A stretch of 64,000 nt of DNA from Curvularia clavata (lineage: Eukaryota): the NCBI GenBank assembly GCA_023920165.1, contig CP089278.1, positions 1,364,001-1,428,000 on the forward strand, given 5' to 3'. The notes under the pieces were generated by a model. That model ran no database searches. It saw only the letters and a list, made by a program, of their open reading frames with translations, and was not told the origin of the DNA. Both the position numbers and the translations under genes were made by a program. Below, piece by piece: positions 14,015 through 39,683 of this stretch (positions are counted from its first letter, which is position 1; each line of letters opens with the position of its first letter).

Positions 14015-15189
14015 TTTGAACGATTCCTTCGCCACTTCGATTTTGTTACGACATTACACGTTTTTATGATACGACATATTCAATATGCATCACCAACATA
14101 CCTAATCCGACACCTACGGAGCGCTCCAGATATTCACTAGTGCCAGCCTCGCCTACGCCGAGCAGTGCAACCTGCCGTCCTACAGAGCCTACCTGCTGAG
14201 CGGGTTTCTCGATATACATTATCGCCTGTTGTGAAAGGTCGAGCTGTGGATCTCGGATGCCCTGCAGCTTCAGGCTTACCGAGGTCTCCTGCAACAATTG
14301 CGTCCCACTAGAACGGTACGGCGCTTCCCGCGAGTGCAGCGCCACACCTCTGACCTCAATGGTGAAATCAACATGGCTAGAGTCAGTGATCAATTGGCGG
14401 AAAACTCAACCACGTAGAATCCCATGATTCTGCGTCATACGCCAAGATACACAGCTACGAATCGGACATGTTACAGCCGTGTACATTACGGGCTGCGGCA
14501 TAAAGCTTCCGGCAGTTGTAGCTTCTGTAATGCCAAGAGAGCTAGAGACTTTGGTCTAGAGCTGAAGGGGTTGAGGATTTTGAAATGGCTGGATCGCACT
14601 ACCAAGGCTCCAAAATAAAATTTGTAGGCATTCGGCGCCTGTCCGATTTGTTTTTTAATGTTACCATGGGCAGCTATACTGTTGTGCATAGGTTTGAAAC
14701 AGGCTAGCCAACAGTCTGGCCATGACAGCAAATTCTGGCAAGAAAATTTCTCTGTGCACTTTGCGCAACGTGCTTTCCGTTGAGTGAGGCATTTTTGAGA
14801 GCTCATGCTCGGCATGCACCGCGCCACAGTCATGGACAGAACAGATCTAGCAAAAGGCATGGCATACATTATTGTAGTGCTTGAATACTGCGGTACTGGT
14901 GTCTCTCACGAATGAGGGGTCTGCAAGTAAAGCCAATTCAGGATAAACGGCCTGCAGATCTGCAAGCCCCGCTCCTTTTGTGCACGCGGCTGCGCCACAC
15001 CTGAGGATTGGCCAATGCCTCAGACGTCATGCGCACATGGGGTCAGGGTGAATATTTGGTTTGCATCTTGCCATGTATTCGGCCTCTTTTTTAAAGCTAG
15101 CGTCTAGGCCCTCGTAGTACGACCTTCCACCTGATTGTTCCTCTGTCGCTGCCTCTCAGTTATCTGAAAATCCAGAAAGCCTCGCCACC

Positions 15190-16824
15190 ATGTCCACCAA
15201 GCCCACGACTGACTATGTCGAATCGACTGAGCCACCTGGGTCCAAAACCAAGGCCCAGATGCTAACGGATGTCTTCTCTCTTGCCACACAGTTCAGTACT
15301 TGTGTTGAGGCTTTCAATCTCATCCATCCGACAAAGGACCACGACCACGCCCAAAAGGTAGCGCTTGCCAAGCTCGGTCTACAGCAAGGCAGATTGTTAA
15401 TATTTGGAGATGCCGTTGGCATTTCTGCGCCACCTGCAACCATTGCACGACACATGATTCCTAGTCATCCTGGAGCAACAAATCCGGATCCGCACCTGCC
15501 TGTCAACTTCGGTGTGCGAGATCCAAGGCTTGATGAAGAGGTAATCAATGCAAAGATCAGGAAAGCGCTCCATGAGATTGCCGGTCGACCCAGCAACATG
15601 TCTCGAGATGAGTTGATGAGCGTGTATGGTTTGAAGAGCCCCAAGACATTTTCCAAGTCGGAATACCCCGCGCTAGACAGCAACCGGCTTGAAGGTTTCC
15701 GCGAGAAGTATGGCTTGCTGAAAGATCTCCTTACACAGACTGGCGCGCGGTCTAGCTTGAAGCGCAATTTGAGCATGACAACGTCGCACTGGCAGGTCAA
15801 AGATACGACGCGCTTCAACGAATACGTAAAGGTAGTGCGCACAGAAGTCGACGCTCTCATTGATCTCATGGGCGTAAAAGAGCAGGTTGACCGTGGAATA
15901 CGATCTGATCTCAAAAGCATGGGCTGGCACCCTGATTTGAGCGGCCCAGTGGTACGACAGGACTGGGAGAAGCTCCGTCTGATTCGCGAGGCGTGTGAGG
16001 TTGACTATCCTGAATATCTCGAGGTTATCGACAAAGCCCTACAGTACATCAGCCAGGAGCTCAAGGAAACCAGTCTTGCCCACCACCGCGCAGAACTTGG
16101 TCTCGGGCAACCAAGTATAGAAAATCCAGGCCGTCGGAAATCGGATCAACAAACACGCTCTACACCAACAGCCCCCAAAGCACCAGCGTCAATCACTCAC
16201 AAACCGGAAGGGAAATCTCACCTCCAACTCGCCGCTGAGCGCGCTCTAAACCCCAACGCTGGCAAAGAAAAACGTCCCAGCTGGCTCTCTGCCTTTAAAT
16301 TCAAATCCTGGAAGAGTAGCAAGAACCAACAGTCAACATTAGAGAAACAGCGTTCAAACAGTCTTCCACACGCATCCACTGTAGACCCCCAGCGCTCTCT
16401 TTCTGCAACCGAAACCTCGGACCACATTATAGACGACCTGAGTCCTCTGCAGGCCGTCCGCTCCAAGTCTGTCGGTGCAATTCCCGAGATGCCGCAGTCT
16501 CCGCCGGGAAATCTCGATGCGCGAGTGCACGACTTGTCGCTCGAGCAGCACGACTCTATTCCTCCCATTGCAGAAAATGGGGGCGAAGTCAAGACTTTTC
16601 CTGAGCGAAAGACTGCTGGCATCAGTTCTGGTACTGCTGAATTGGACAAGAATATGCTTGTGCAGGTTCAGACTGCGAACAGTGAGACAGCAGAGAACAA
16701 GGATCAAGCTCTTGACAATGTGAAGACGGCGAATAGTCATATTGATCGCCATGATATGTACCCTGCAGTGGGCAGAATCGAGACAAAGGATATTAGGAAT
16801 GTGGCGCATGTAGCTGGACGGTAG
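15190..16824 (+). CDS. HeLo (prion-inhibition and propagation, HET-S N-terminal) domain protein with disordered C-terminal tail
   Basis: FSTCVEAFNLI...LGLQQGRLLIFGDAVGI parallels the HET-s/HET-S HeLo N-terminal helices; WQVKDTTRFNEYVKVVRTEVDALIDL matches the HeLo C-terminal W-x-x-x-D-x-x-x-F motif; intronless, 544 aa. Confidence 0.82.
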   Translation: MSTKPTTDYVESTEPPGSKTKAQMLTDVFSLATQFSTCVEAFNLIHPTKDHDHAQKVALAKLGLQQGRLLIFGDAVGISAPPATIARHMIPSHPGATNPDPHLPVNFGVRDPRLDEEVINAKIRKALHEIAGRPSNMSRDELMSVYGLKSPKTFSKSEYPALDSNRLEGFREKYGLLKDLLTQTGARSSLKRNLSMTTSHWQVKDTTRFNEYVKVVRTEVDALIDLMGVKEQVDRGIRSDLKSMGWHPDLSGPVVRQDWEKLRLIREACEVDYPEYLEVIDKALQYISQELKETSLAHHRAELGLGQPSIENPGRRKSDQQTRSTPTAPKAPASITHKPEGKSHLQLAAERALNPNAGKEKRPSWLSAFKFKSWKSSKNQQSTLEKQRSNSLPHASTVDPQRSLSATETSDHIIDDLSPLQAVRSKSVGAIPEMPQSPPGNLDARVHDLSLEQHDSIPPIAENGGEVKTFPERKTAGISSGTAELDKNMLVQVQTANSETAENKDQALDNVKTANSHIDRHDMYPAVGRIETKDIRNVAHVAGR

Positions 16825-28300: not shown

Positions 28301-31020
28301 ATGTCGGCATACTCACAGCATTACGCCTATTCGGAACAACCTCTTTTCGTCGACCCTCATGCTTTTGTCTACGGCGGCCAGTATGATGCCCGACAACGGT
28401 CCAAGACACCAACAGACTCCTTGGTCAATCATACCGGCCTCTCGCCTGGCCCACTTACAACCACACCACCTTTGAGTCGGGGCCCATCGCAGCAGCCGGA
28501 GCTCCTTCAAGATCCTGAGCACATGCTATGGGACAATGGCAGTTCCTCGACGTCTCCTACCTCTGTACGGACGCCAGACGGCGATTCATTCGAGGTAGAG
28601 ATGCTCGACTCGGAATCGATACGCAACTACTACCACCAGAATGGTAATACCATGGCAGCGCAGACGACTCCAAACGGCCTACCAACCATGGATTCCAACA
28701 TGATGTTTACTGCTCAAGGCACCTTAAGCGACCAAGGTATGTTACCTTGATGCTACTGGTTTACGTATCTTCGCTGACGTGCCTATAGTCGTTCAAGCAG
28801 CCTTTAATGTCACAATAGCTGAACAGCAAATGTTCCAGCAGCAATACAATCTACAGGCTCAGCAAGCACAGCAAATGTCAATGATGCACGCCCAAAACAA
28901 CATGTACGACCAGAACTACACCACCCAGCCACCCAGTCATGACACGTGGAGTGGACAGGGGCATTCACGGTCTTCGATGATTCCCAGATCTGGTCACGTC
29001 ATGTTCGATGCTACGAGCGACTCGGTGAACTATTCTGATTATTTGATTGATGTGGACACCTGGGCAGCACAATACACAGACCCTTCGTCTCTCATCTCGC
29101 CCAGCGAGCCTACTGTTCCAGTTCATGAGAATATGTTCTTTTCCCCAATACAAAACCTTGCTCCTGCATTCGATCCGGTCCCCCAAACGCCACTACAGCA
29201 CCGCAGCTCCGTAGACATGCAAGAGAGAAGGCCATCGCCTCCACCCGATCAGCAGAATTTTGTCAACTACAATGCTTCTTCCAGTCTCTTCACGGATAAT
29301 TACATTACTGGCAATGCATTCTCAGCGTCACCATCGGCAGCATCCTCAGCCGGTTATCACCCACAATCCCCTTTCCAGCCAGCTATCAGCCCATCGGCAC
29401 CTAGCCCAGGAAGTTCCGACGGCATATACTCTGCGTACCAGCACTCGGACTCTGGGATAATGGTCGATCAGTTTCAGACGCAGCAGTTTGAACATTTGCA
29501 ACAACCGCAGATGCAAGCACCAAAAGTAGACCACACTGTCCACAGCGGCGTACCCGAAATGAGTTTTGATGCGTCCCCCGAACCGGAATCGTCCGGAAGT
29601 GCAGCACAAAAAGCGATGGCGGCAAAGTCTGGGGGCAGAGCATTGGGCACTCACTTGGAGCCCACGGTCGCCAAAGCAGCGCACGACATGCGCAAGATTG
29701 TCGCGTGCTGGCACTGCGTCTTGCAGAGAGACAAGTGCGGTCCTGGCGAAATCTGCGATCGCTGCTTCAAGCGATCCCAGCGGCCCAACGCTGATTGCGG
29801 TCTTGGATGCAATCGGATGAAGCTTATCGATTTATCGCCATACTTCTTGCCTCCAGTAGTCACGCAAATGCACGAAGATTCGAACCTCACCCGCTTCGTT
29901 ACCCAATACATCCAACAGTGGGGCAACGATGAGCTTACGGTCTACATGACATGTGGTCAGCACAGCATGCCTAGGATTCCCGTCAAGGTCTATGAGTTTG
30001 TTCCCCGAGGAGATGAGTTGCTGGTGCAGATCCAATACAGGCTTGACCCAAAAACCCAGACAAGAGTTCCGGTCAAGAAGCGAAGTCCAGCACTGGGCAT
30101 GGTACACATCAACCACAACGAGGAAAAGAAGTATGACAAATATATTTCCGATATTGTCGAAAACCACCTTGATGCTTTTGGCGAACTCTGTTGGATGGAA
30201 GACGATAACGATTTCCAGCAAAAGCTTTTCAAATTGATGACGCGCGTAAAGCCAAAGTCGGACGACGAAGCCAAGCTCCTTAGGGAAATCTTCCGCCTTA
30301 TTGTGGTCACATTTATCATGTCACACACGCTCACAATCGCCGAGGAAACCAAAGCTGCAACCTTGTCGCGTATGCATTCATACGGCGGTCCCAACTCTTA
30401 TGTTGAGAACTACACATCGCCACGCATGACGAACCGACAGCTCAAGTACTTTTTCTCACGCCTTCAACGGTCCATCCAAGCCAACGTTCTCAACAAGCTG
30501 CAACAAATTCTCAAGTCATCTAAAGGATGTGACAAATGGCTTGCAGCATTCGTTGCCGTGTTGGGCATGTGCATGGCGCTCGAAGACCAGCAGAAGACTA
30601 TCCACCTTGTCATGTCGACCAGAGCTCAGACCGAAGGCATCGACCCAAGGGATGCGCAAGACCAGGCAGATGATACGTGTCGCGAGATTGACCAAAGAAT
30701 ACATTTCGTGCAGCAGATCTTCCGGTGGAAGTACAACCGCAAGTGTAATCCTATGCGGGATGCTGATCTTGACTGGGAGAAGGAAGTTGGGTTTGGAGAT
30801 GCATCCAGCGTAAACTTTGTCAGGCAGACTGCGCAGTTGGTAAAGGAAAACAGTGAGCTATCCCGTTGTAACAGAACTTTCATTCAATATGTGCTAACCA
30901 ATGGCAGTCGACTTCCTACAACAAAGACAAGCAGTAAGCATCTCGCCTAGAAATCAGACGAAGTATACCTCGCGCCTCGTCGGGCAGTTTCTACTTTCTT
31001 TCTGGCTTCCAAGCGTATAA
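28301..31020 (+). CDS. Putative transcription factor with an internal zinc-cluster-like motif and Q/S/P-rich N-terminus
   Basis: Three exons (introns 28737..28788 and 30853..30907). CWHCVLQRDKCGPGEICDRC...CGLGC at 29706..29810, then a helical C-terminal domain ending ...LLSFWLPSV*. Confidence 0.85.
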
Positions 31021-32009
31021 TGCTGTTAGTACCTTTGCACCAGTCACGGCCTTTGTCTTGGTTTTGTTGCGTTTCTGTGTCAAAAGATTTGTTTACTTTT
31101 CTCTCACGACATTATGTGTGCAACGGCCAGATCTTCCAGAGAGATACCCTCTCTGTTTCGTTTCAAACACAAAAATACGTGGCGCGGCATGTGTCCTTTC
31201 GATATACGATTCACGACTTCGAGCTCCTTAACGTTTCACGACACCATATTTTTATACCCTTTTTTATCTTGTTTCATGGATAGCGTTTGCTTGTGTATCG
31301 GAAAAGAGATTCAGCATCTTCAGGATCGGTATGACATGAGCAAATGACGAGCATGTAACGCAGCATATCTACTATAATGAAGTTGTATCACTGCAAAATC
31401 ATTCCATCTCACGAAGTTGTTCAATCGTGACGTTGTTAGAATAAAATACTCTTAGACTAAACTTGTGTATTTGCGCTACTTTCCCCGGCCTTCTGCCTTT
31501 CATGAGTTGCCAAACTGAACCTATACAAGCGCCGAGTCGAGGAGCATCCTCGCAGCATTGCGTAAGCTACTATGAGTGCTGAATGCACCATACACTATGT
31601 CGAGGTCTGGATAGTGCTGTTTATCCGATTAACTGTTCCAGCTGTGTAAGTCGAGAGTGATGGAAATGAGTGTTGATATATCCTCGAATGGACAATGAAA
31701 TCTTCTTGATAAGATCACGTTCAACATCGCGTCTAGACTTCCATGTCCCAGGGAGCAGATCCCCCATTAGTTTGGGCCATGGAACACAAAATCCTTGATA
31801 GGATAACTTCTTCTAGCAATAGATGTGACTTATTTGCCGCCTTTATTCTTTGACAAGATGCTATAACATGACTCTTCCAAACAATTCCAATATAGGTGCA
31901 TTATGTATTGAACTTGGACCGTGCGAAAAGCGGCTATGTACATCCTAAATGAGATTTGGCAACACTAGAGTAACCTGTAGACGAGAAAGTTCTCAAACTG
32001 CCCAGTTGT

Positions 32010-32393
32010 TCAGCAACCAGGGCCGAACGAAGTAGGGTGGCAAGTGCCACCGCTATTGCTATCGGCACCACAGCAATACATGTGGTTTCCTCCAGAGCAA
32101 ATGTTGTAACACCCATCCTTGGTAACCCAAAACGCTGCCTTCTGTGACCCACCCTTGTCGCCCGAGCATGTCACATATGTGTTCTGCAAGCTTGGCGTAG
32201 ATTTGACTTGACCGCAAGCACCAGCGATTGCGTCGCAGAAGAAGGTCTGGCCGTTGTCGAAGCTGTAGATGGCAGAGTGTGTTGGCACATTGCCGCGTCC
32301 TCCGTTGAGGCTTCCGCTTTTGCAGCGAATGGTGCCAGTGGCGGAAGCGGAGCCAATGGCCAGGGCTGAGATGGCGATGGAAGTGAGCTTCAT
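32010..32393 (-). CDS. Small secreted cysteine-rich protein (127 aa, 10 Cys)
   Basis: Signal peptide MKLTSIAISALAIGSASA; Cys at 24, 53, 60, 76, 95, 99, 107, 108, 118 and 127. A 5'-UTR intron (32394..32450) ends directly at the ATG, and TATATAA lies upstream at about 32547..32553 on the minus strand. Confidence 0.88.
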   Translation of the reverse strand: MKLTSIAISALAIGSASATGTIRCKSGSLNGGRGNVPTHSAIYSFDNGQTFFCDAIAGACGQVKSTPSLQNTYVTCSGDKGGSQKAAFWVTKDGCYNICSGGNHMYCCGADSNSGGTCHPTSFGPGC

Positions 32394-33614
32394 CTGTAGA
32401 GCGGAGTTAGTCTTTTGAAATACTTTCGTCTCAGTGCTGCTTCTACGTACGGCGAGTGGGTATGTCGTGAAGTGTTGATTTAGTGCGTAGTGTGTTTGGT
32501 GAGTCGATGCTGCGATGAAGGACGGTTTGGGTTTTTTGTAGATTCTTATATATTTGCTGTAGGGACTATCAAGCTCCTCAATAGGAAATCATGTCAAATG
32601 TCTCGCGAACAGCTCATAGCTTCGGCCCGACATAATGCTTAGCAAACGCCGGTTTACGTTCAAGTCCGTAGCAATGAATCATGTCAAGTCTAGGGAGCAT
32701 GGGACTCTCTCGGGCATATGCACCTTCACTAAAGGACCATATTGGTCAAGGAGAAGTCTCTGATTTCGATGACTTGCGCAATTCGCCTAGGAACTGTTCG
32801 CACTTTCTTCTCATCATGAAACCCGAAATCTCGGCGTATACGACAACGATAGCTATACTGACGCCTCATACAATGTAGCGGTGACATGTTTGCGAGGACA
32901 ATAGCTGGGCACATGGGTCTTGCTTACTCACCAATTTGGCATACCTACACTGGGGCTGAACCGCAGAATCTGAGATTTAGTTTCGGGGTTCAAATCTTCA
33001 TCTATAGAGAAAGGCGAGGCTAGCCAACTGTAAAGACGAATGGCCGCAGCCTACTAGCTATTTATAGTAATGTAGTTAGCACGTTTCCATAAACAACCAA
33101 TGATCATAAGAATCGATATTTACGCTAAGGTTGCAGTCACTCCCATTTTGTGTTCCTTACAATGACCAGTCTAACTTCGGGCTTAGCGCCAAATTCGTAA
33201 GCAGCGCGTGGCACCACAACAACCGAGCGATATCATTTTACCCTGTGCGAGCATATTAGATATGCCGAGGCATGTTGTGAGAATATTTTGAGCACATAGC
33301 ACTATACCGGTGTCGATGTCCATCAGAACATAAATCAAATAAATAGCGTTGAAATTGTAATCAAAGTTTTTGGTTTTGTAACGAGCCACTTTCGATACTT
33401 CGCAACTTCGTCCTTTCGACGCTCCTTTGTGAATACCATGGTGGAGATATTTTTCATTTAGCATTCATACTGCTGAATCATTGGTGCGTAATACTCCAAA
33501 GTAACACCATGTGAAAAATCGATCCTCATCCGTCCAGGATCTATTCTGCTAGATTTCTCTAAATAATTGGACTTCTACCCTTCAAATCACCTCTTAGTCA
33601 ACGTCTCGACAATC

Positions 33615-34616
33615 ATGCTGTTGGACCGGGACTCCTCTTGGAGCCATGGAAATGACTCGCAAGATGAGTCCCTCTTGCCAAACTACGACACGAAACAAGA
33701 TGTAGGAGATAGATCCACGGTCCAAAGAATCATCAGTCACAACGCTCTTGTTATCTCGCTTGCTCTAAATCTCGTTCTGGGGGTATTTTCTTTCACCCTA
33801 TGGTTAGCCCACAGCAGATACATGCACAGCCTCGATAACATGGCAAGCTATCCTACATTTAACCCTGGTAAGGAAGGCTTCTTAAAAGCTGCCATATACT
33901 GACCGTAGCCAGTTCCGCTGTCTGCAAGAACCTTTGAGCATGATCACTCTTTCGACGGAGATCCACACGACGACAAGGGGCCATGGGAAGGATTGATACC
34001 GAGTATGTCAATTTCCATACTCTTACTAGCTAAACAACTTATTCGCGTCAAACAACTATAGCCGGCCGAGGCTTCGTAAGGGTTTCCGACCCAAGCGAGT
34101 ATGGTCTGTCACCTGGCGTTCCCCTTGGGGACGAATTTCCCAAGCAACAAGGATATTTGGTGTCAATGTATCACCAACTTCATTGCATCGTAAGCAAACT
34201 TTTCATTTTCAATCAAAACTGGAGCACCTCACCCTAACATTTCATAGGCCGTTTTGAAGAAGACGATCATCGAAGCTCAAGATCCGGAAAATCGCCCAAC
34301 ACATTTCTCGAAGCTCAATGTGACTTTGCTTGGCAACATTGAACTCGAGCATTCCCATCACTGCGTTGAGTATCTCCGACAGGTAAAAACTCAAGCTATT
34401 GTCTGTGAAGGAATTAATCCCGGAAAGCTAATCTTGTATCTGCAGGCCATCCTCTGTGCTGGAGATCTAACACTGGAGCCAGCTGAATTTATAGATGGCA
34501 AGATTTCTCACGCTGTGAGTGGTTGGGGTGTGAAGCATGTTTGCCGCAACTCCGATTTCATTTTCGACATGGTTTCAGAGCGTGCTGTGAACAACGCCTC
34601 AGGGGTTACTGCGTGA
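33615..34616 (+). CDS. DUF3328/UstYa-family oxidase (type II membrane protein, two HxxHC motifs)
   Basis: Five exons (introns 33868..33912, 34003..34061, 34190..34247, 34383..34445). TM helix ALVISLALNLVLGVFSFTLWLA, WEGLIPTGRGFV, VSMYHQLHCI, HSHHCVEYLRQAILCAGDLTLEP and GWGVKHVCRN. Confidence 0.93.
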
Positions 34617-36804
34617 GGGGAACATTGGTAATGCTGTAGTTTTAAACTGGTAAAAGAAAAACAATTCAATACCGATACTCGCGGTAACATGGCGCTGTGT
34701 AAATAAATCCAATGTTTGTGGCCACGATCAATAATGCAGTTCTGGAGGCTGTTAAACCACATGATGGTATCCAAGCGATAGATAGGCACTCTTTGAGTCG
34801 GCCATCTAATGACAACGCCATGCGACCTGAGTCTTCAGTACTAGCAGAGGCTCATCCTCTGTAGTATGCTTAGCACTAAAGTTTAATATCACTCGGACTA
34901 GGTATTCAATATACCTGTAATGCCAAATATGTGATTGGTACACATATGGTAATATTGTGGATAGAAGGGATTGGTTTAGAGCTGTAGATACAATAGCAAT
35001 AGATTGTCTCATACAATATTCGGGAGACGGGTTTTCAGGTTACCTATCCACCAAGACCTAGTCATTTCTTTGTATCTGGCTGCATACGCTATTGATGAAT
35101 CCTTGTAATCGCTTGTGCCAATTGGCTCATACTAGATAACGTGTCTACCAATGACCTTTTCCGTCAGCGAGATGCTTGTCTGTAAGAAACTTTGTTTGCT
35201 AACAGTGCCCTAAACTGTTCTGTTACCGACCAACATAAACATAAAGCTAGACTGTGAAAGCTTCTTCTACCACATCTTCAAGTTCTGCTATGTGTTTCTC
35301 ACATGCCCGCCCCATGGCACTAAGGCTTTAAGTCGGCTCACAGCCGGTTGCACCGGCTGGTCCACTTGTTGTGTTTGTGAAATCTCACAATCGATGCTAT
35401 CTAAACCAAAGCTCATATGCCAAAGGGGTTTTCCCTGTCTCTTCCTTTCCCTGTCTACTTTCATGACCGCGGACGCACTCATAGTTTCAAATACTTGGTT
35501 TTGCAAACCACATATTATCTTGGCCGTCGCAGTGACTAACCTTATCTTCAAAACGAGCTAGTTGATTAGCACAACATTCCTGCAACGAGAGGCGTCCAGG
35601 AACCATCTCTCTTCAGACGGACACCCCTGCTCTAACCTAGAACGGCATATAAACACCTTCCTTGCAGGGGGCTGATAATGCGCATCTAAGAGTATTTCAC
35701 ACACCCTTCTCGCTCTCACCTCGGTACTACAAAAGCAGCTGACTGCCAATCGTCGATTTGCCGAAGATAAGGTTTCAGGCTAACCGCTCACGTGTGCGCG
35801 TTTTGGAAGCGAGGCCTGAGGTTGGTTTGAGAGACCTAGGCTGCGGCTGAGGAGGCATTTCTTGTGCCTCTCGGCGAATTGGCACCGGGAATTCGCCGCG
35901 TGTCTAAGGAAAGAGGGGCGAGCTCATTGCCAATTCTTTTTCGGCAGCTTGGCCATGGTCTGATTGTGGCGTAAGTCATGTTTAAATGAGAAGTCGAGAA
36001 TTCGATACGGGCTTGTTTGAACTGTGATATGGGTAAGGTTTTACTTAGGTGTAATTGAAGAGAGTTTGCAAGGGAAGAGTGGGGTACGACGCACCTAGCA
36101 GAAACACTGGCTTGCGTAAGAGTGGCGTGCAGGTCGTTTCTAGGCCGCAAAGTATAATGTATGTAAGCATGGGACAGGATTGGTCCGGAACTAAGGCCGT
36201 TCACTGTGATGCACGCGGCACGGGATCACGTACCTACGCACGATGGGATCCGGCATGTCAGACGGAAAAGGGGTCAATGCGTGGCTGGCCACCCATGAGA
36301 ATGAGGCCGTGCCTAGGGTGTGCCCTGCATATTATGTAGGACCGATTGAGCAGTTTATTGATGCTCCCTCACGTAGAGGAGCCGAGTATTTGTATATGAA
36401 GAATACGTAACAAAGAGTGAAGAAAATTAGACAAAGGAAAAGTTTCGCTCCAATGCGAAGTGGTATAGGCGTCAAACTCCGTGAAGAAAAGGAAATCCCC
36501 AAACTCCATGCCGATTGTTCCGGGTCGTAGCACAGTAGTTAAAACCGGGTATTAGAACAAGAAACATGACCATATAAAGCAAAAGAGCAAAGAATCATGC
36601 GTGGAGAAGCATACTAGAGGCTTGGCTGCAATCATCTGCCACATCGTCGTCGTGGTCGTACCTGTGATTCTGGTATTCCCTCTCCAGTTCTACGCTCATC
36701 CATTTCCAGTCACTAATGGAGAAGCTCTTGCTACTGCCGCAATAGTCAGCCTACCCACTCTGTGCTACTACCGAGGCAAGTGAAGAGAAAGTAGGGGGAA
36801 TTAC

Positions 36805-39683
36805 CTACTGCTTTGGCCGCCCGCCCACATTTGGGAAAAGCAGTCCGAGACCCTCTTCCCAGCCGCGCTCTGTCACAATGTCGATCACAGGTCGGCCAGA
36901 CTCATCAAGAGCTTGTAGATCTGGGGGTCCACCCATCTCAAGGAGAAGCTTGAGAATCTCAGCATCACCATTCTCGACAGCTTGGAGAATGGCGTTCCAG
37001 CCACGGTGCATCTTGTTGATGTCTGCACCCCGTGTAAGCAGCATTTGGATGATCTCTGTATCGCCGTTGTAGCGGCGGAGGGCTTTGACTATAGGTAGGT
37101 GTTCGCCCGGGGCATTTGGGTCGGCGTTGGCGACGTCGAGAAGGTAGCGAACAATAACTTTGCGTTCCTCGCGAATGGCAGTCGTAAGAGGTGAGAAGAC
37201 ACCACAGTTCTTGTCCTCGACGCTTACGCCAGCTTCGAGGAGAAGCTTGATGCTGTCGAGCTGGTTGGCAACGACAGCCATTTCGACTACACCGCGGAAG
37301 GCACGTGGGTTCGGGGTCGCGGCGAGGAGTTTCTTAAGAATTTCAGGGCGTTTGACAGCCATGCAAAGAGGCCAATCCTCGCCTCGAATCGTAGGATCAG
37401 CTCCTCGTTGGAGTAGAATGTCGACGAGCTCGGCCCTGTCTTCCCGGATGGCGGTTGTAAGCGCTGTGCAACCTTCAGGTGTTCGGTCGTTGGGGTTGAC
37501 TCCATGGTCGAGCAGATAGATCATGGCATCCTTGTCATTGAATTTCACGGCCGTCTCGATAATGCCCTTGGGTTTGTTCAGGTCCGCACCAGCTGCTACT
37601 AGTTGTGGGAGGAAGTGTGTGCGCTTGTGAGTGATGCACTTGAAAGCTGGGTACTCTGCCGCATTGAAGTTGGGATCTGCGCCGTGGTCGAGCAGATAAG
37701 TGACAATTTCAGGGCTGTTGTCGCGAATAGCCGAGCAAAGTGGTGTGTAAACATTGTCTTTACGCACATTGGGTGAAACGCCGGCTTCCATGAGGATCTT
37801 GATGGATTCAAGCTTCTTCAAACTTGAGGCTAACTCCATAACACCCGGTGTCTTCTTGTGATCAGCACCCCGCTGCAGCAGCAATTGCAGAGCCTTCGGC
37901 TTGTATGTCGATGGCCACAAGGGATGCTTAGGACCTGGGAGATTGGGGTTGGCGCCATGGTCCAGTAGTACCGTCATCAAGTCGATACGGTTTGCTTGGA
38001 TGGCCTGGAACAAGGGCGTTGTGCCTTCTCCATTCTTCGCGTTGGGGTCTCCTTTGCCACTCAGCAATACTTCCACGCATTTTGGCGATGTTGTCTTGTT
38101 CATGGCGGAGATGAGCGCTGTAGAACCGTTCTCCATGATAAAGCCGATATCACCACCGTTGTCGAGGAACAGCTGGACGAAGTCAATGTAGTTCTGGGAT
38201 GCGGCCGTCGACAGAGGCGATTCAGAATCGGGCCCAGCGGAAAGATTTGGGTCAGCGCCATGCTTAAGCAATACTTTCGCACAGTCGAGGGACTGGCCAC
38301 GAGTAGCTGCAAACAAGGGCGTGACGCCTTCACGATCGAAGCCGTTTGCATCTGCACCGTATCGTAGAAGCAGTGCCACAGTCTCAACATCTTGGTTGTG
38401 TACGGCTACCCGAAGCATAGCAGACTCGACATGTGGTTCTGCTTTGGCGCCGCCCTCAAGCAATTGCTCCAGTATTCGGTGTCTTCGCTGTTCGACGGCA
38501 TTGAATAGTGCTGCTTTGCCGCCAACATTCTTCGAACCTCCACTCTGGCGCGGTCCCCAATTTTGAGACGCTACTAAAGAGTCGACTTTAGATGACGCGA
38601 GGTGATCGTCGTAGCGCTCACTGACACTGAGGGAGCGGAGTTTCTCTTCTATAGGCGAAAGACCAGAATATGACGAGACGACCTCCTCGTAAAGAGGATT
38701 CTCATGGTAAGGAGCATTTTGGTGGTACATTGTTTCCCTGGTTGATTCACTGGAACGGGCACTTGGCGGGGCCGGTCGCCAGTTCTTGTGAAGGTCGACG
38801 ATACTCGATGATAATCCACTCTCGTCTTGCCTTGAAATCGAACGCTCACTGTGGAAATTAAATCCCTCGTCGTGACGCAGTTCGTTCAAAGACGGCCTGT
38901 CCAGGCGGCTTGCAGCGGGCATGACCGGTGGGTCTCGGTCTCCATGGTGGCTAGCAGGTTTTGGTGGCGTTGGTGGGAGATTTCCCGTGGGAGCAGGATG
39001 CACAGGAGGAAGGGTTGAAGACTTGCTGGGGTTGAGACGCTCCAATGCAGCGATCAGTCCAGCGTAGCCGATTCCCATTGAAGCATCCGCTCTAGCATCG
39101 CCAATCGTCCATCGGAACATGGCTGAGCTGACTTTCAAGGCATCACGACTCCGCGCCAGAGTGTGGCGCATTTTCTCAACGTCGGTATCCGCAAACATCA
39201 TCCGAAACTTCATGCCAAAACCACCTTTGTGGTTCTCTTTGTCAACGACTACGCCACGTTAGTACCCTAAAAATGAATGCACCTGGGCTTGAAACATATG
39301 ACGAAACGTCTGATATGACACCGGAACTCACATTTGTTAACCATCTGAGCAAGCACAGAGAACTCCTCGCCAACTTGACGGACCCGCCTGTCAAGCTCTT
39401 GAGATACTTCAACGGGAAGCCCATTGCGTGTTTTGCTAGTCTCTTCAACGCCAGACTCAATAGACCATAATTCCTGAAGAAAACTATTAGCTCCGTCGCA
39501 AGAGAGAGATCCGTCGTTGATACATACCTGGCAGAGCTCAATAAATTCTCTTGCAAGCTGCTCGAAGCCGTGAAGAGGTGTCTTTGCAGTGCTCAAGTAT
39601 TCGAGCATGCGGATTGCGATGGTGTTTCCTTGTACATTGACACGCTTGCATAGCTCAAGCGATGTTTCCTTTGCCGGAGCCAT
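36805..39683 (-). CDS. Ankyrin-repeat protein with N-terminal helical (HeLo-like) domain
   Basis: Many GxTPLxxA/GADPN repeats. Two 5' introns join MAPAKETSLELCKRV...EFIELCQ|ELWSIESG...QMVNK|FVDKE...KFRMMFADTDVEKMRHTL to the large exon. Confidence 0.88.

What the first reader, a model, noticed from the sequence alone, without database searches (positions are those of the whole stretch)
32010..34616. Stand-alone divergent pair: DUF3328/UstYa oxidase plus a non-repetitive 10-Cys secreted protein (candidate new RiPP-like or secreted-protein modification system)
Seen: two head-to-head genes about 1.2 kb apart, with no other recognisable gene between 31.0 and 36.8 kb. One encodes an intact membrane-anchored DUF3328 protein (HQLHC and HSHHC). 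The other encodes a 127-aa signal-peptide protein with 10 Cys, several aromatic or His residues (Y43, Y73, W89, Y96, H104, Y106), no tandem core repeats and no KR/RR Kex2 sites. No NRPS, PKS, tyrosinase or repeat precursor is visible in the window. Established: DUF3328 enzymes oxidatively cyclise Kex2-processed repeat precursors in dikaritin RiPPs (ustiloxin, phomopsin, asperipin-2a) or tailor small-molecule scaffolds such as cyclochlorotine. Inference: both products enter the secretory pathway and share a promoter, so the oxidase may crosslink, hydroxylate or halogenate a folded disulfide-rich protein. That would be a minimal two-gene system with a precursor type outside the known repeat paradigm.
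Basis: partly seen in the sequence, partly recalled or inferred. Interest (0 to 1): 0.85.

Follow-up and report, generated by a model that had tools for sequence, protein, structure and literature searches.

The report
Conserved copper-oxidase and small secreted-protein pair
A fungal copper oxidase gene of the UstYa type lies head-to-head with a gene for a small disulfide-rich secreted protein, and the same two genes are also neighbours in a distant fungus, so the oxidase may modify a whole protein rather than the usual repeat peptide.

Summary
Both genes are real. The small gene (32010-32393, minus) encodes a 127-aa signal-peptide protein with 10 Cys, no dibasic sites and no repeats. The DUF3328/UstYa gene (33615-34616, plus) has five coding exons and gives a 258-aa protein with an N-terminal membrane helix, HQLHC and HSHHC. 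Spliced RNA-derived contigs from two studies show both genes transcribed.

The key new result concerns Aspergillus granulosus, a different fungal class. The best database homolog of the oxidase (KAL2814808.1, 50% identity) and a homolog of the small protein (KAL2814809.1, 50-55%) have consecutive accessions on one 285,682-bp contig. The pair is therefore a conserved unit, not a chance neighbourhood.

The small protein belongs to a rare, unnamed fungal family: 22 hits among 1.84 billion representatives, no Pfam family and no clear fold match. The 'cyanovirin-N' label given by a source is not supported here.

Nothing yet shows that the oxidase acts on the protein. Its first coding intron is retained in the assembled transcripts of both studies. 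The closest small-protein homolog, in Ascobolus, has no detected matching oxidase. I put enzyme-substrate coupling at about 0.4 and neighbours by descent only at about 0.35. It is a good lead, a new variant of a known kind.

The parts
31921..32009 (-). 3'UTR of the small-protein gene (contigs end at 31921 in X1 and 31931 in X4)
   Evidence: RNA-derived contigs, table 8. An adaptor-like loose end lies at 31931 in X4 (table 7).
32010..32393 (-). Single coding exon of the 127-aa secreted protein with 10 Cys (stop codon included)
   Evidence: Identical to P0025. Homologs.
32394..32450 (-). 57-nt intron in the 5'UTR; its acceptor site directly abuts the ATG
   Evidence: Joint 32393->32451 with CT..AC ends in X1 (table 5); seen in one run only.
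32451..32498 (-). 5'UTR exon of the small gene, as far as the contig reaches; it holds no ATG
   Evidence: side of 48 letters; sequence read.
32499..33311 (.). Spacer between the two divergent transcripts; candidate shared promoter region
   Evidence: The RNA-like runs X1 and X4 have no cover over 32503-33170, and the first cover on the oxidase side starts at 33312 (X1) and 33382 (X4). X11, judged to be DNA from its cover without joints, covers the spacer in pieces. The promoter function is inferred.
33312..33482 (+). First 5'UTR exon of the DUF3328 gene; it contains short upstream ORFs
   Evidence: table 8 (X1 record 3); sequence.
33483..33536 (+). 54-nt 5'UTR intron of the DUF3328 gene
   Evidence: Joint 33482->33537 with GT..AG ends in X1 and X4.
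33615..33867 (+). Coding exon 1: cytosolic N-terminus and membrane helix (residues about 44-66)
   Evidence: It aligns with P0027 from residue 41 onward.
33868..33912 (+). Coding intron 1 (45 nt; GTAAGG donor, CTGAC branch site, CAG acceptor). It is retained in the assembled transcripts, which puts a stop after codon 95.
   Evidence: Pieces 33537-34002 (X1) and 33862-34002 (X4) are contiguous. The spliced reading is supported by an alignment to P0027 without a gap at this point and by the public model P0028.
33913..34002 (+). Coding exon 2
34062..34189 (+). Coding exon 3, ending in HQLHC
   Evidence: Intron 34003-34061 is spliced in X1 and X4.
34248..34382 (+). Coding exon 4, with HSHHC
   Evidence: Intron 34190-34247 is spliced in X1 and X4.
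34446..34616 (+). Coding exon 5, with two further invariant Cys (stop codon included)
   Evidence: The 63-nt intron 34383-34445 is spliced in X1 and X4, although the public model P0028 reads through it.

Best explanation
This is a conserved two-gene cassette. One gene encodes a DUF3328/UstYa oxidase. It is anchored by one N-terminal membrane helix, and its catalytic domain carries the HxxHC...HxxHC site that binds two copper ions in the characterised member CctR. That domain faces the lumen of the secretory pathway. The other gene, transcribed in the opposite direction across a spacer of at most about 0.8 kb, encodes a signal-peptide protein of about 109 mature residues with up to five disulfides. 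It belongs to a rare, unnamed fungal family. My proposal is that the oxidase meets the small protein in the Golgi, endosome or vacuole lumen and oxidises it before secretion. The likely reaction is a side-chain cross-link or a hydroxylation at an aromatic or aliphatic residue. One candidate site is the Tyr96-Asn97-Ile98 stretch between Cys95 and Cys99, which has the same Y-x-I spacing as the ustiloxin core YAIG. The secreted product would be a modified small protein, or a fragment cut from it, that acts outside the cell. Shown here: the gene structures, the family membership of the oxidase, transcription of both genes, and adjacency of the homologous pair in a second fungal class. Inferred: topology, copper chemistry, and every step of enzyme-substrate coupling.
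For: 1. Conserved adjacency. A search with the C-terminal half of the oxidase found 1 protein among 171 candidates. It is P0027 of Aspergillus granulosus, which carries PF11807 at 91.4 bits and is 50% identical over 219 columns with one gap. P0027 is KAL2814808.1. The small-protein homolog P0003 is KAL2814809.1. Both lie on a contig of 285,682 bp. Reading consecutive accessions as neighbouring genes is my inference from usual GenBank practice.
2. Both families are rare. The small protein has 22 hits at E<=0.001 among 1.84 billion representatives. P0027 has 9 hits at E<=1e-5 among 408 candidates, and apart from the window's own protein the next relative is only 33% identical. By comparison, DUF3328 genes average 9399 per 1461 strains (PMC7329392, passages). 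With roughly 10^4 genes per genome (general knowledge), a chance neighbour is expected well below 1% of the time.
3. Same compartment. The small protein has a signal peptide and the oxidase has a membrane helix. CctR has its C-terminal domain in the lumen of Golgi, endosomes and vacuoles (PMC12435403, passages).
4. Transcription. Spliced contigs of both genes are present in 2 of 2 RNA-like runs, from two studies.
5. The catalytic residues and the two C-terminal Cys are invariant across the 9-sequence subfamily alignment and are present in the window's protein.
Against: No DUF3328 enzyme is known to act on a folded protein. Described substrates are Kex2-processed repeat peptides or small cyclic peptides (passages of PMC6514808, PMC9632046 and PMC12435403).
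The small protein has no dibasic site and no repeat.
Coding intron 1 of the oxidase is retained in the assembled transcripts of both RNA-like runs. That form would give a 95-residue truncated product. Contigs can hide a minority spliced form.
The closest small-protein homolog outside the genus, in Ascobolus immersus (59-61% identity, all 10 Cys), lies on a 770,941-bp contig. No P0027-like oxidase with that contig length appeared. The same holds for the members from Trametes polyzona, Tricholoma matsutake and Aspergillus udagawae. That search is word-limited, and other DUF3328 subfamilies were not examined.
Tyr96 is present in only 8 of the 20 family members that cover the column.
Only 31.8% of DUF3328 genes lie within 15 genes of a repeat precursor, so many act on unlinked or unknown substrates.
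Confidence: 0.4

Rival explanations
1. The two genes are neighbours by descent only. The head-to-head pair was inherited or transferred as one DNA segment, and it stays together because a shared spacer is hard to break. The oxidase tailors an unlinked peptide or metabolite. The small protein is an independent secreted effector, lectin-like or antimicrobial protein.
For: About two thirds of DUF3328 genes are not near a repeat precursor (31.8% of 9399 lie within 15 genes). Family members in at least five other named genomes show no detected P0027-like oxidase on a contig of the same length. The small protein is closer to the Ascobolus protein (59-61%) than to the Aspergillus one (50-55%). That fits patchy transfer or loss rather than a stable co-evolving pair. 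The root metatranscriptome run X7 holds pieces of the small gene only, which is weak evidence.
Against: Both proteins are about 50% identical between two fungal classes, so the adjacency has survived long divergence. Both families are rare, yet they co-occur. Both products enter the secretory pathway.
Confidence: 0.35
2. The small protein serves the oxidase instead of being its substrate. It could be a luminal copper carrier, a redox partner that supplies the electrons the enzyme needs, a substrate-presenting partner, or a protein that protects the producer from the product.
For: CctR needs copper and an electron input (PMC12435403, passages). His104 and the Cys-Cys pair at 107-108 are nearly invariant in the family, and His39 is invariant in the 7-sequence alignment. 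The adjacency is conserved.
Against: The conserved Cys most likely form structural disulfides in a secreted protein. The Met next to His104 is not conserved. No characterised DUF3328 pathway in the passages I read needs such a partner. Family members occur without a detected matching oxidase.
Confidence: 0.15
3. In this species the oxidase gene is a relic. It is transcribed but mostly not spliced into a productive message, so the pair no longer works together here.
For: Coding intron 1 is retained in the contigs of both RNA-like runs, while the other three coding introns and the 5'UTR intron are removed.
Against: The spliced frame is fully open, the splice signals are canonical, and all catalytic residues are present. 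Intron retention is common and can be regulated in fungi (general knowledge). Contigs drop rare forms (tool text).
Confidence: 0.07

Closest known systems
Dikaritin RiPP clusters (ustiloxin ust, asperipin-2a apr, phomopsin phom)
   Same: A DUF3328/UstYa oxidase gene lies next to a gene for a signal-peptide product. The asperipin cluster is also small, at four genes (PMC6514808, passages). Known cross-links join Tyr side chains to beta-carbons, and the small protein has a Y-x-I stretch like YAIG.
   Different: The precursor here has no tandem repeats and no Kex2 sites, which are the hallmarks used to define dikaritin precursors (PMC9632046, passages; tested). It is predicted to be a folded beta protein of 10 Cys. 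No tyrosinase, transporter, reductase or methyltransferase gene lies beside it.
CctR, the DUF3328 hydroxylase of cyclochlorotine
   Same: It shares the HxxHC(x)nHxxHC motif, a single N-terminal membrane helix, a luminal C-terminal domain and extra C-terminal Cys (PMC12435403, passages; window features).
   Different: CctR tailors a non-ribosomal cyclic peptide inside a larger cluster. No NRPS is in this window. Sequence relatedness to CctR itself was not measured, because I held no reference sequence.
Plant BURP-domain copper cyclases
   Same: They are copper-dependent side-chain cross-linking enzymes with four planar His, which PMC12435403 names as the closest analogue. They show that a copper enzyme of this kind can act on cores embedded in a larger polypeptide (PMC12186524, search-listing abstract only).
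   Different: They belong to an unrelated protein family in plants. Their cores are short peptides, not a disulfide-rich folded domain.
Alt a 1 / PevD1 family of small secreted fungal beta-barrel proteins
   Same: They are small, secreted, Cys-containing fungal beta proteins. They are the top structural matches of the model: 5xmz Z 5.7 (rmsd 3.7, 93 aligned) and 4aud Z 5.5 (rmsd 3.9, 91 aligned).
   Different: The Z scores are below the level that the tool calls meaningful. There is no sequence or Pfam match. I do not file the small protein in this family.

Membership tests
DUF3328 / UstYa (PF11807) | Match to the Pfam profile above the gathering score | tested here: met
   The public model of the window's gene (P0028) scores 57.4 bits against a cutoff of 25, and the A. 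granulosus homolog P0027 scores 91.4 bits. Three exons give colinear sub-threshold hits.
DUF3328 / UstYa (PF11807) | HxxHC(x)nHxxHC motif | tested here: met
   HQLHC is at 152-156 and HSHHC at 192-196 of the 258-aa model. Both motifs are invariant in the 9-sequence alignment A3. The motif definition is from PMC12435403.
DUF3328 / UstYa (PF11807) | Single N-terminal membrane helix with a non-cytoplasmic catalytic domain | tested here: met
   The only hydropathy peak (19-residue window above 1.6) is centred on residues 48-56. The topology is inferred by analogy with CctR.
DUF3328 / UstYa (PF11807) | Copper and dioxygen dependence; disulfide-linked homodimer | not testable with these tools
   Two further Cys (206, 235) are present and invariant in A3. 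Their equivalence to CctR C190 and C213 was not aligned.
Dikaritin RiPP gene cluster | Precursor with a signal peptide followed by tandem core repeats separated by kexin (KR/RR) sites | tested here: not met
   There are no dibasic pairs. No tandem repeat lies in or near the gene. No repeat or dibasic ORF of precursor type occurs in the 64-kb window. There is no internal repeat by hhalign (probability 0.2%).
Dikaritin RiPP gene cluster | DUF3328 gene beside the precursor gene | tested here: met
   The genes are head-to-head, 1,221 bp from ATG to ATG. Their homologs are adjacent in A. granulosus.
Cyanovirin-N homology domain (CVNH, PF08881), the name a source gives to three family members | Match to the Pfam CVNH profile | tested here: not met
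   None of the 23 family sequences matches CVNH at E<=0.1. There is also no match at E<=1 for the window protein or at E<=10 for P0001-P0003.
Cyanovirin-N homology domain (CVNH, PF08881), the name a source gives to three family members | Two tandem sequence repeats forming a pseudo-symmetric fold | tested here: inconclusive
   Comparing the N-half with the C-half by hhalign gives probability 0.2%. No CVNH entry appears among the listed structural matches. However, the model is of middling confidence (pLDDT 73.5), and a family that is not listed is not excluded.
Alt a 1 / PevD1 family | Fold and sequence similarity to Alt a 1 | tested here: inconclusive
   Z is 5.1-5.7 over 91-96 residues. There is no Pfam or PDB sequence match.

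The most novel reading that the evidence does not exclude
A UstYa-family copper oxidase uses a folded, disulfide-rich secreted protein as its substrate. It installs an intramolecular side-chain cross-link, for example Tyr96 to the beta-carbon of Ile98 in the C-Y-N-I-C strand. This would be the first protein-level substrate for the family. It would also define a minimal two-gene cassette that moves between fungal classes as a unit.
Probability: 0.2. Interest if true: 0.85.

Novelty: new variant of a known kind. Interest (0 to 1): 0.6.

Why it matters
DUF3328/UstYa enzymes were shown to be binuclear copper enzymes only in 2025. By the 2020 survey read here, most of their genes lie away from any repeat precursor, so their substrates are unknown. 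A pair conserved across fungal classes points to one concrete candidate substrate of a new type: a whole small protein. It can be tested with two expression constructs and a mass spectrometer. If confirmed, genome mining for fungal ribosomal natural products would have to look beyond Kex2-repeat precursors. Some 'small cysteine-rich effectors' next to DUF3328 genes would also need to be re-read as modified products. If refuted, the pair still defines a new, rare family of secreted fungal proteins and corrects the public gene model of the oxidase.

Tried and rejected
Complex prediction. I sent the luminal domain of P0027 (two copies) with mature P0003. The verdict was 'no answer', so it is not evidence either way.

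Metagenome context. A smaller alignment, A2, returned one locus, L001. It matches only about 30 residues, carries no DUF3328 match, and the matching frame overlaps a long opposite-strand ORF. I rejected it as spurious. The longer metagenome and Logan contigs that hold family members could not be fetched.

Whole genome. None is held for this window, so I could not look for a repeat precursor elsewhere or count DUF3328 paralogs.

Earlier findings of this scan. Three look-ups found nothing.

Fold of the small protein. Foldseek on the PDB gave no match at E<=0.001. VIA-align gave best Z values of 5.1-5.7, to generic small beta-barrels. No cyanovirin entry was listed. A PDB sequence profile search gave 0 hits for the small family and 0 for the oxidase subfamily. 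The ESM Atlas listed only unnamed fungal clusters scoring below 0.9.

Internal repeat. By eye, residues 21-53 resemble residues 73-99. hhalign does not support this.

Third example of adjacency. I looked up the sources of 20 of the 22 hits; P0019, P0021, P0023 and P0024 were not looked up. None of the named members shares a contig length or a neighbouring accession with the oxidase relatives.

Run X7, a root metatranscriptome, has no cover on the oxidase gene. A part without cover proves nothing.

Contig depths differ strongly between the two genes and between the runs. I did not use them to rank expression, as the tool advises.

Literature. Four full-text searches listed no paper whose title or abstract links a DUF3328 enzyme to a non-repeat folded protein. 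I read passages only and no supplements.
Full report
OBSERVATION

The minus-strand ORF 32010..32393 encodes 127 residues. It has ten Cys, at 24, 53, 60, 76, 95, 99, 107, 108, 118 and 127. There is no dibasic pair and no N-glycosylation sequon. The N-terminus is hydrophobic and ends in A-S-A.

On the plus strand I built a five-exon model for the DUF3328 gene: 33615-33867, 33913-34002, 34062-34189, 34248-34382 and 34446-34616. All introns are GT..AG. The model gives 258 residues, with HQLHC at 152, HSHHC at 192, two further Cys at 206 and 235, and one hydropathy peak at about residues 44-66. The two start codons are 1,221 bp apart.

The public model of this gene, P0028, is 204 aa. It starts at an internal Met and reads through the last intron. 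It still scores 57.4 bits on PF11807 against a cutoff of 25. The three larger downstream exons hit the same profile colinearly.

P0028 is named by its source as a protein of Curvularia clavata. It lies on a contig of 3,309,251 bp, the same length as the contig that carries the window's small protein, P0025. So the window is from that species or a near-identical strain.

SURROUNDINGS

Pfam on 21 long ORFs of the window found these families:
- FMN-dependent dehydrogenase
- short-chain dehydrogenase
- esterases
- fungal rhodopsin domain
- HeLo
- ankyrin repeats
- SNF2/RING helicase
- Fe/Mn superoxide dismutase
- RhoGAP/PH

It found no NRPS, PKS or tyrosinase. Tandem Repeats Finder and a scan for ORFs with dibasic sites plus repeated 5-mers found no Kex2-repeat precursor. 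A tblastn of all collected proteins against the window found one copy of each gene.

TRANSCRIPTS

I laid Logan contigs of four runs on 31000-36000. X1 and X4 come from two studies. Their records do not say whether they are RNA, but their contigs are spliced.

The small gene is covered from 31921 (X1) or 31931 (X4) to 32393. X1 also shows a 57-nt intron, 32394-32450, that ends directly before the ATG. The upstream exon holds no ATG.

The oxidase transcript starts at or before 33312. It has a 54-nt 5'UTR intron (33483-33536). Coding introns 2, 3 and 4 are removed in both runs, exactly as in my model. That includes the 63-nt intron which the public model translates.

Coding intron 1 (33868-33912) is not removed in either run. 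The pieces 33537-34002 (X1) and 33862-34002 (X4) are contiguous. The retained form stops after codon 95. Even so, the spliced reading is the biologically coherent one. It aligns with P0027 from residue 41 to the last residue at 50% identity with a single one-residue gap.

Either the productive mRNA is a minority form under the sampled conditions, or splicing of this short intron is regulated or failing. Contigs cannot say which.

The same X1 contig runs on into a minus-strand intron (34859-34914, CT..AC). So a convergent spliced transcript overlaps the 3' end of the oxidase gene.

X11 covers the spacer as well and shows no joints, so it is probably DNA. X7, a root metatranscriptome, holds two 151-nt pieces of the small gene only.

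THE SMALL PROTEIN'S FAMILY

An exhaustive phmmer search over 1.84 billion representatives gave 22 proteins at E<=0.001. I dropped two of them, P0019 and P0024, as long repeat-rich proteins. The word-indexed search gave three close hits:
- a 95%-identical protein from a Logan assembly;
- Ascobolus immersus RPA86271.1, 59% identity;
- Aspergillus granulosus KAL2814809.1, 55% identity over 84% of the query.

Source look-ups for 20 of the 22 hits added Trametes polyzona, Tricholoma matsutake (two paralogs) and Aspergillus udagawae (two strains). The rest are unnamed metagenome or Logan proteins.

The 23-sequence alignment shows these features:
- a signal peptide;
- six core Cys (24, 60, 95, 107, 108, 118);
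- a nearly invariant block of the form F-W-I-T-x-D-G-C-x-N-I-x-x-G-G-x-H-x-x-C-C;
- His39.

The four extra Cys are specific to the window, Ascobolus and A. granulosus subgroup.

None of the 23 members matches any relevant Pfam family, and a PDB sequence profile search gave no hits. UniRef calls three members 'cyanovirin-N' proteins. I could not reproduce that label. There is no CVNH profile hit, no internal repeat by hhalign, and no CVNH entry among the listed structural matches.

The AlphaFold model (pLDDT 73.5, pTM 0.63) is an all-beta protein of about eight strands. Its best matches are the Alt a 1-type effector PevD1 (Z 5.7, rmsd 3.7, 93 aligned) and Alt a 1 itself (Z 5.5). They sit among unrelated small barrels at Z 5.0-5.6, which is below the level the tool regards as meaningful. 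I therefore treat the family as unnamed.

THE KEY RESULT: CONSERVED ADJACENCY

A search with the C-terminal half of the oxidase among longer proteins returned one protein out of 171 candidates. It is P0027 of Aspergillus granulosus: 292 aa, with PF11807 at 91.4 bits. Its accession is KAL2814808.1. The small-protein homolog of the same fungus is KAL2814809.1. Both are on a contig of 285,682 bp, and their JGI identifiers are four apart.

Consecutive protein accessions in a genome submission normally mean consecutive genes. That step is my inference, and the orientation is unknown.

Searching with P0027 gave 9 proteins at E<=1e-5 among 408 candidates. The window's own protein was second, at 50% identity. 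The next relative was only 33% identical. So two rare genes that are each other's best or near-best homologs are neighbours in a Dothideomycete and in a Eurotiomycete.

For scale, a 2020 survey counted 9399 DUF3328 genes in 1461 strains (PMC7329392, passages). With roughly ten thousand genes per genome (general knowledge), a chance DUF3328 neighbour is expected well under 1% of the time in one genome. It is far less likely to involve the matching subfamily twice.

LIMITS OF THAT RESULT

I could not fetch fungal contigs, so several things are unknown:
- whether the flanks are also syntenic;
- whether the pair is head-to-head in Aspergillus;
- whether the Ascobolus, Trametes, Tricholoma or A. 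udagawae genes have any DUF3328 neighbour.

None of the oxidase relatives lies on a contig whose length equals that of those small-protein genes. So a P0027-like oxidase is probably not linked there. The search is word-limited, and other DUF3328 subfamilies were not examined.

The small protein is more similar to the Ascobolus protein than to the Aspergillus one. That is the reverse of the species tree. It suggests transfer, paralogy or uneven rates.

MECHANISM

DUF3328 proteins were recently shown to be membrane-associated, dioxygen-dependent binuclear copper enzymes. They work as disulfide-linked homodimers, and the HxxHC(x)nHxxHC motif holds the copper. The catalytic domain of CctR faces the lumen of Golgi, endosomes and vacuoles (PMC12435403, passages).

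The window's protein has every sequence feature of that description. A signal-peptide protein passes through the same compartments. The simplest functional reading of a conserved divergent pair is therefore that the oxidase modifies the small protein in transit.

Known UstYa-type reactions join Tyr side chains to beta-carbons, as in YAIG (ustiloxin) and FYYTGY (asperipin-2a) (PMC6514808, passages). The small protein has Tyr96-Asn97-Ile98 between two Cys. Side chains two residues apart on a strand point the same way (general knowledge), so this is a plausible site. But Tyr96 is present in only 8 of 20 members that cover the column, so this is a lead and not evidence.

I rate enzyme-substrate coupling at about 0.4.

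RIVALS

1. Neighbours by descent only (0.35). Most DUF3328 genes are not next to a known precursor. The small family occurs without a detected matching oxidase. A shared spacer can preserve a pair without any shared function.
2. The small protein serves the oxidase as a copper or electron carrier, or protects the producer (0.15). This rests on the conserved His and Cys and on the enzyme's need for copper and electrons.
3. The oxidase gene is a transcribed relic here (0.07). This rests on the retained intron.

COMPARISON WITH KNOWN SYSTEMS

The oxidase is a member of PF11807. The pair is not a dikaritin cluster as defined in print, which requires a signal peptide followed by tandem repeats separated by kexin sites (PMC9632046, passages). 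That defining feature was tested here and is not met.

The pair may still work like a dikaritin cluster. It would be a new variant: a non-repeat, folded precursor or substrate.

Four full-text searches listed no paper whose title or abstract describes a DUF3328 enzyme paired with such a protein. I read passages of six papers and no supplements, so this is not proof of absence.

VERDICT

The enzymology is open. Interest 0.6. Novelty: new variant of a known kind.

Noticed in passing
window 33840-34616 (+): The public protein model of the oxidase gene (P0028, 204 aa) starts at an internal Met, so it lacks the membrane helix. It also translates the 63-nt last intron as 21 extra residues. RNA-derived contigs of two studies splice that intron out, and the A. 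granulosus homolog lacks the insert.
   Followed up: yes
window about 34650-35022 (-), intron 34859-34914: A spliced minus-strand transcript converges on and overlaps the 3' end of the oxidase gene (one contig of run X1). Its only ORF from the first ATG, at 35012, is 34 codons in the spliced form. That ORF has a hydrophobic start and a Tyr/His/Trp-rich end. It is probably non-coding or antisense RNA. A short non-repeat precursor cannot be excluded, and its conservation could not be tested.
   Followed up: partly
window 28830-30950 (+): The tail-to-tail neighbour of the small gene is a 706-aa Gln-rich protein with a C-x2-C-x6-C-x5-C-x2-C cluster. Pfam gave no hit. The ESM Atlas places it with clusters carrying PF27566 KpeA and Zn(2)-C6 domains (score 0.97, 230 of 256 features shared). 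Its 3'UTR is on a high-depth contig in run X1. It is probably a conserved regulator rather than a cluster-specific one. The role of KpeA in secondary metabolism is recalled, not checked.
   Followed up: partly
window 33312-33614 (+): The 5' leader of the oxidase mRNA holds two very short upstream ORFs (ATGs near 33317 and 33438) and an intron. Together with the retained coding intron, this suggests that expression is controlled after transcription.
   Followed up: no
window 35686-36000 and beyond: A low-depth contig of run X1 covers this stretch, where no ORF of note lies. It may be a long 3'UTR of the ankyrin-repeat gene (36805-39213, minus) or another non-coding RNA.
   Followed up: no
window 15118-16821 (+): An ORF carries a HeLo domain (prion-inhibition and propagation, 108 bits), a fungal cell-death and incompatibility module. 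It is unrelated to the finding.
   Followed up: no
proteins P0002, P0003 and P0022 (other genomes): UniRef labels three members of the small-protein family as cyanovirin-N proteins, yet no CVNH profile, repeat or fold match could be reproduced here. The label may be an over-prediction that has spread through automatic annotation.
   Followed up: yes
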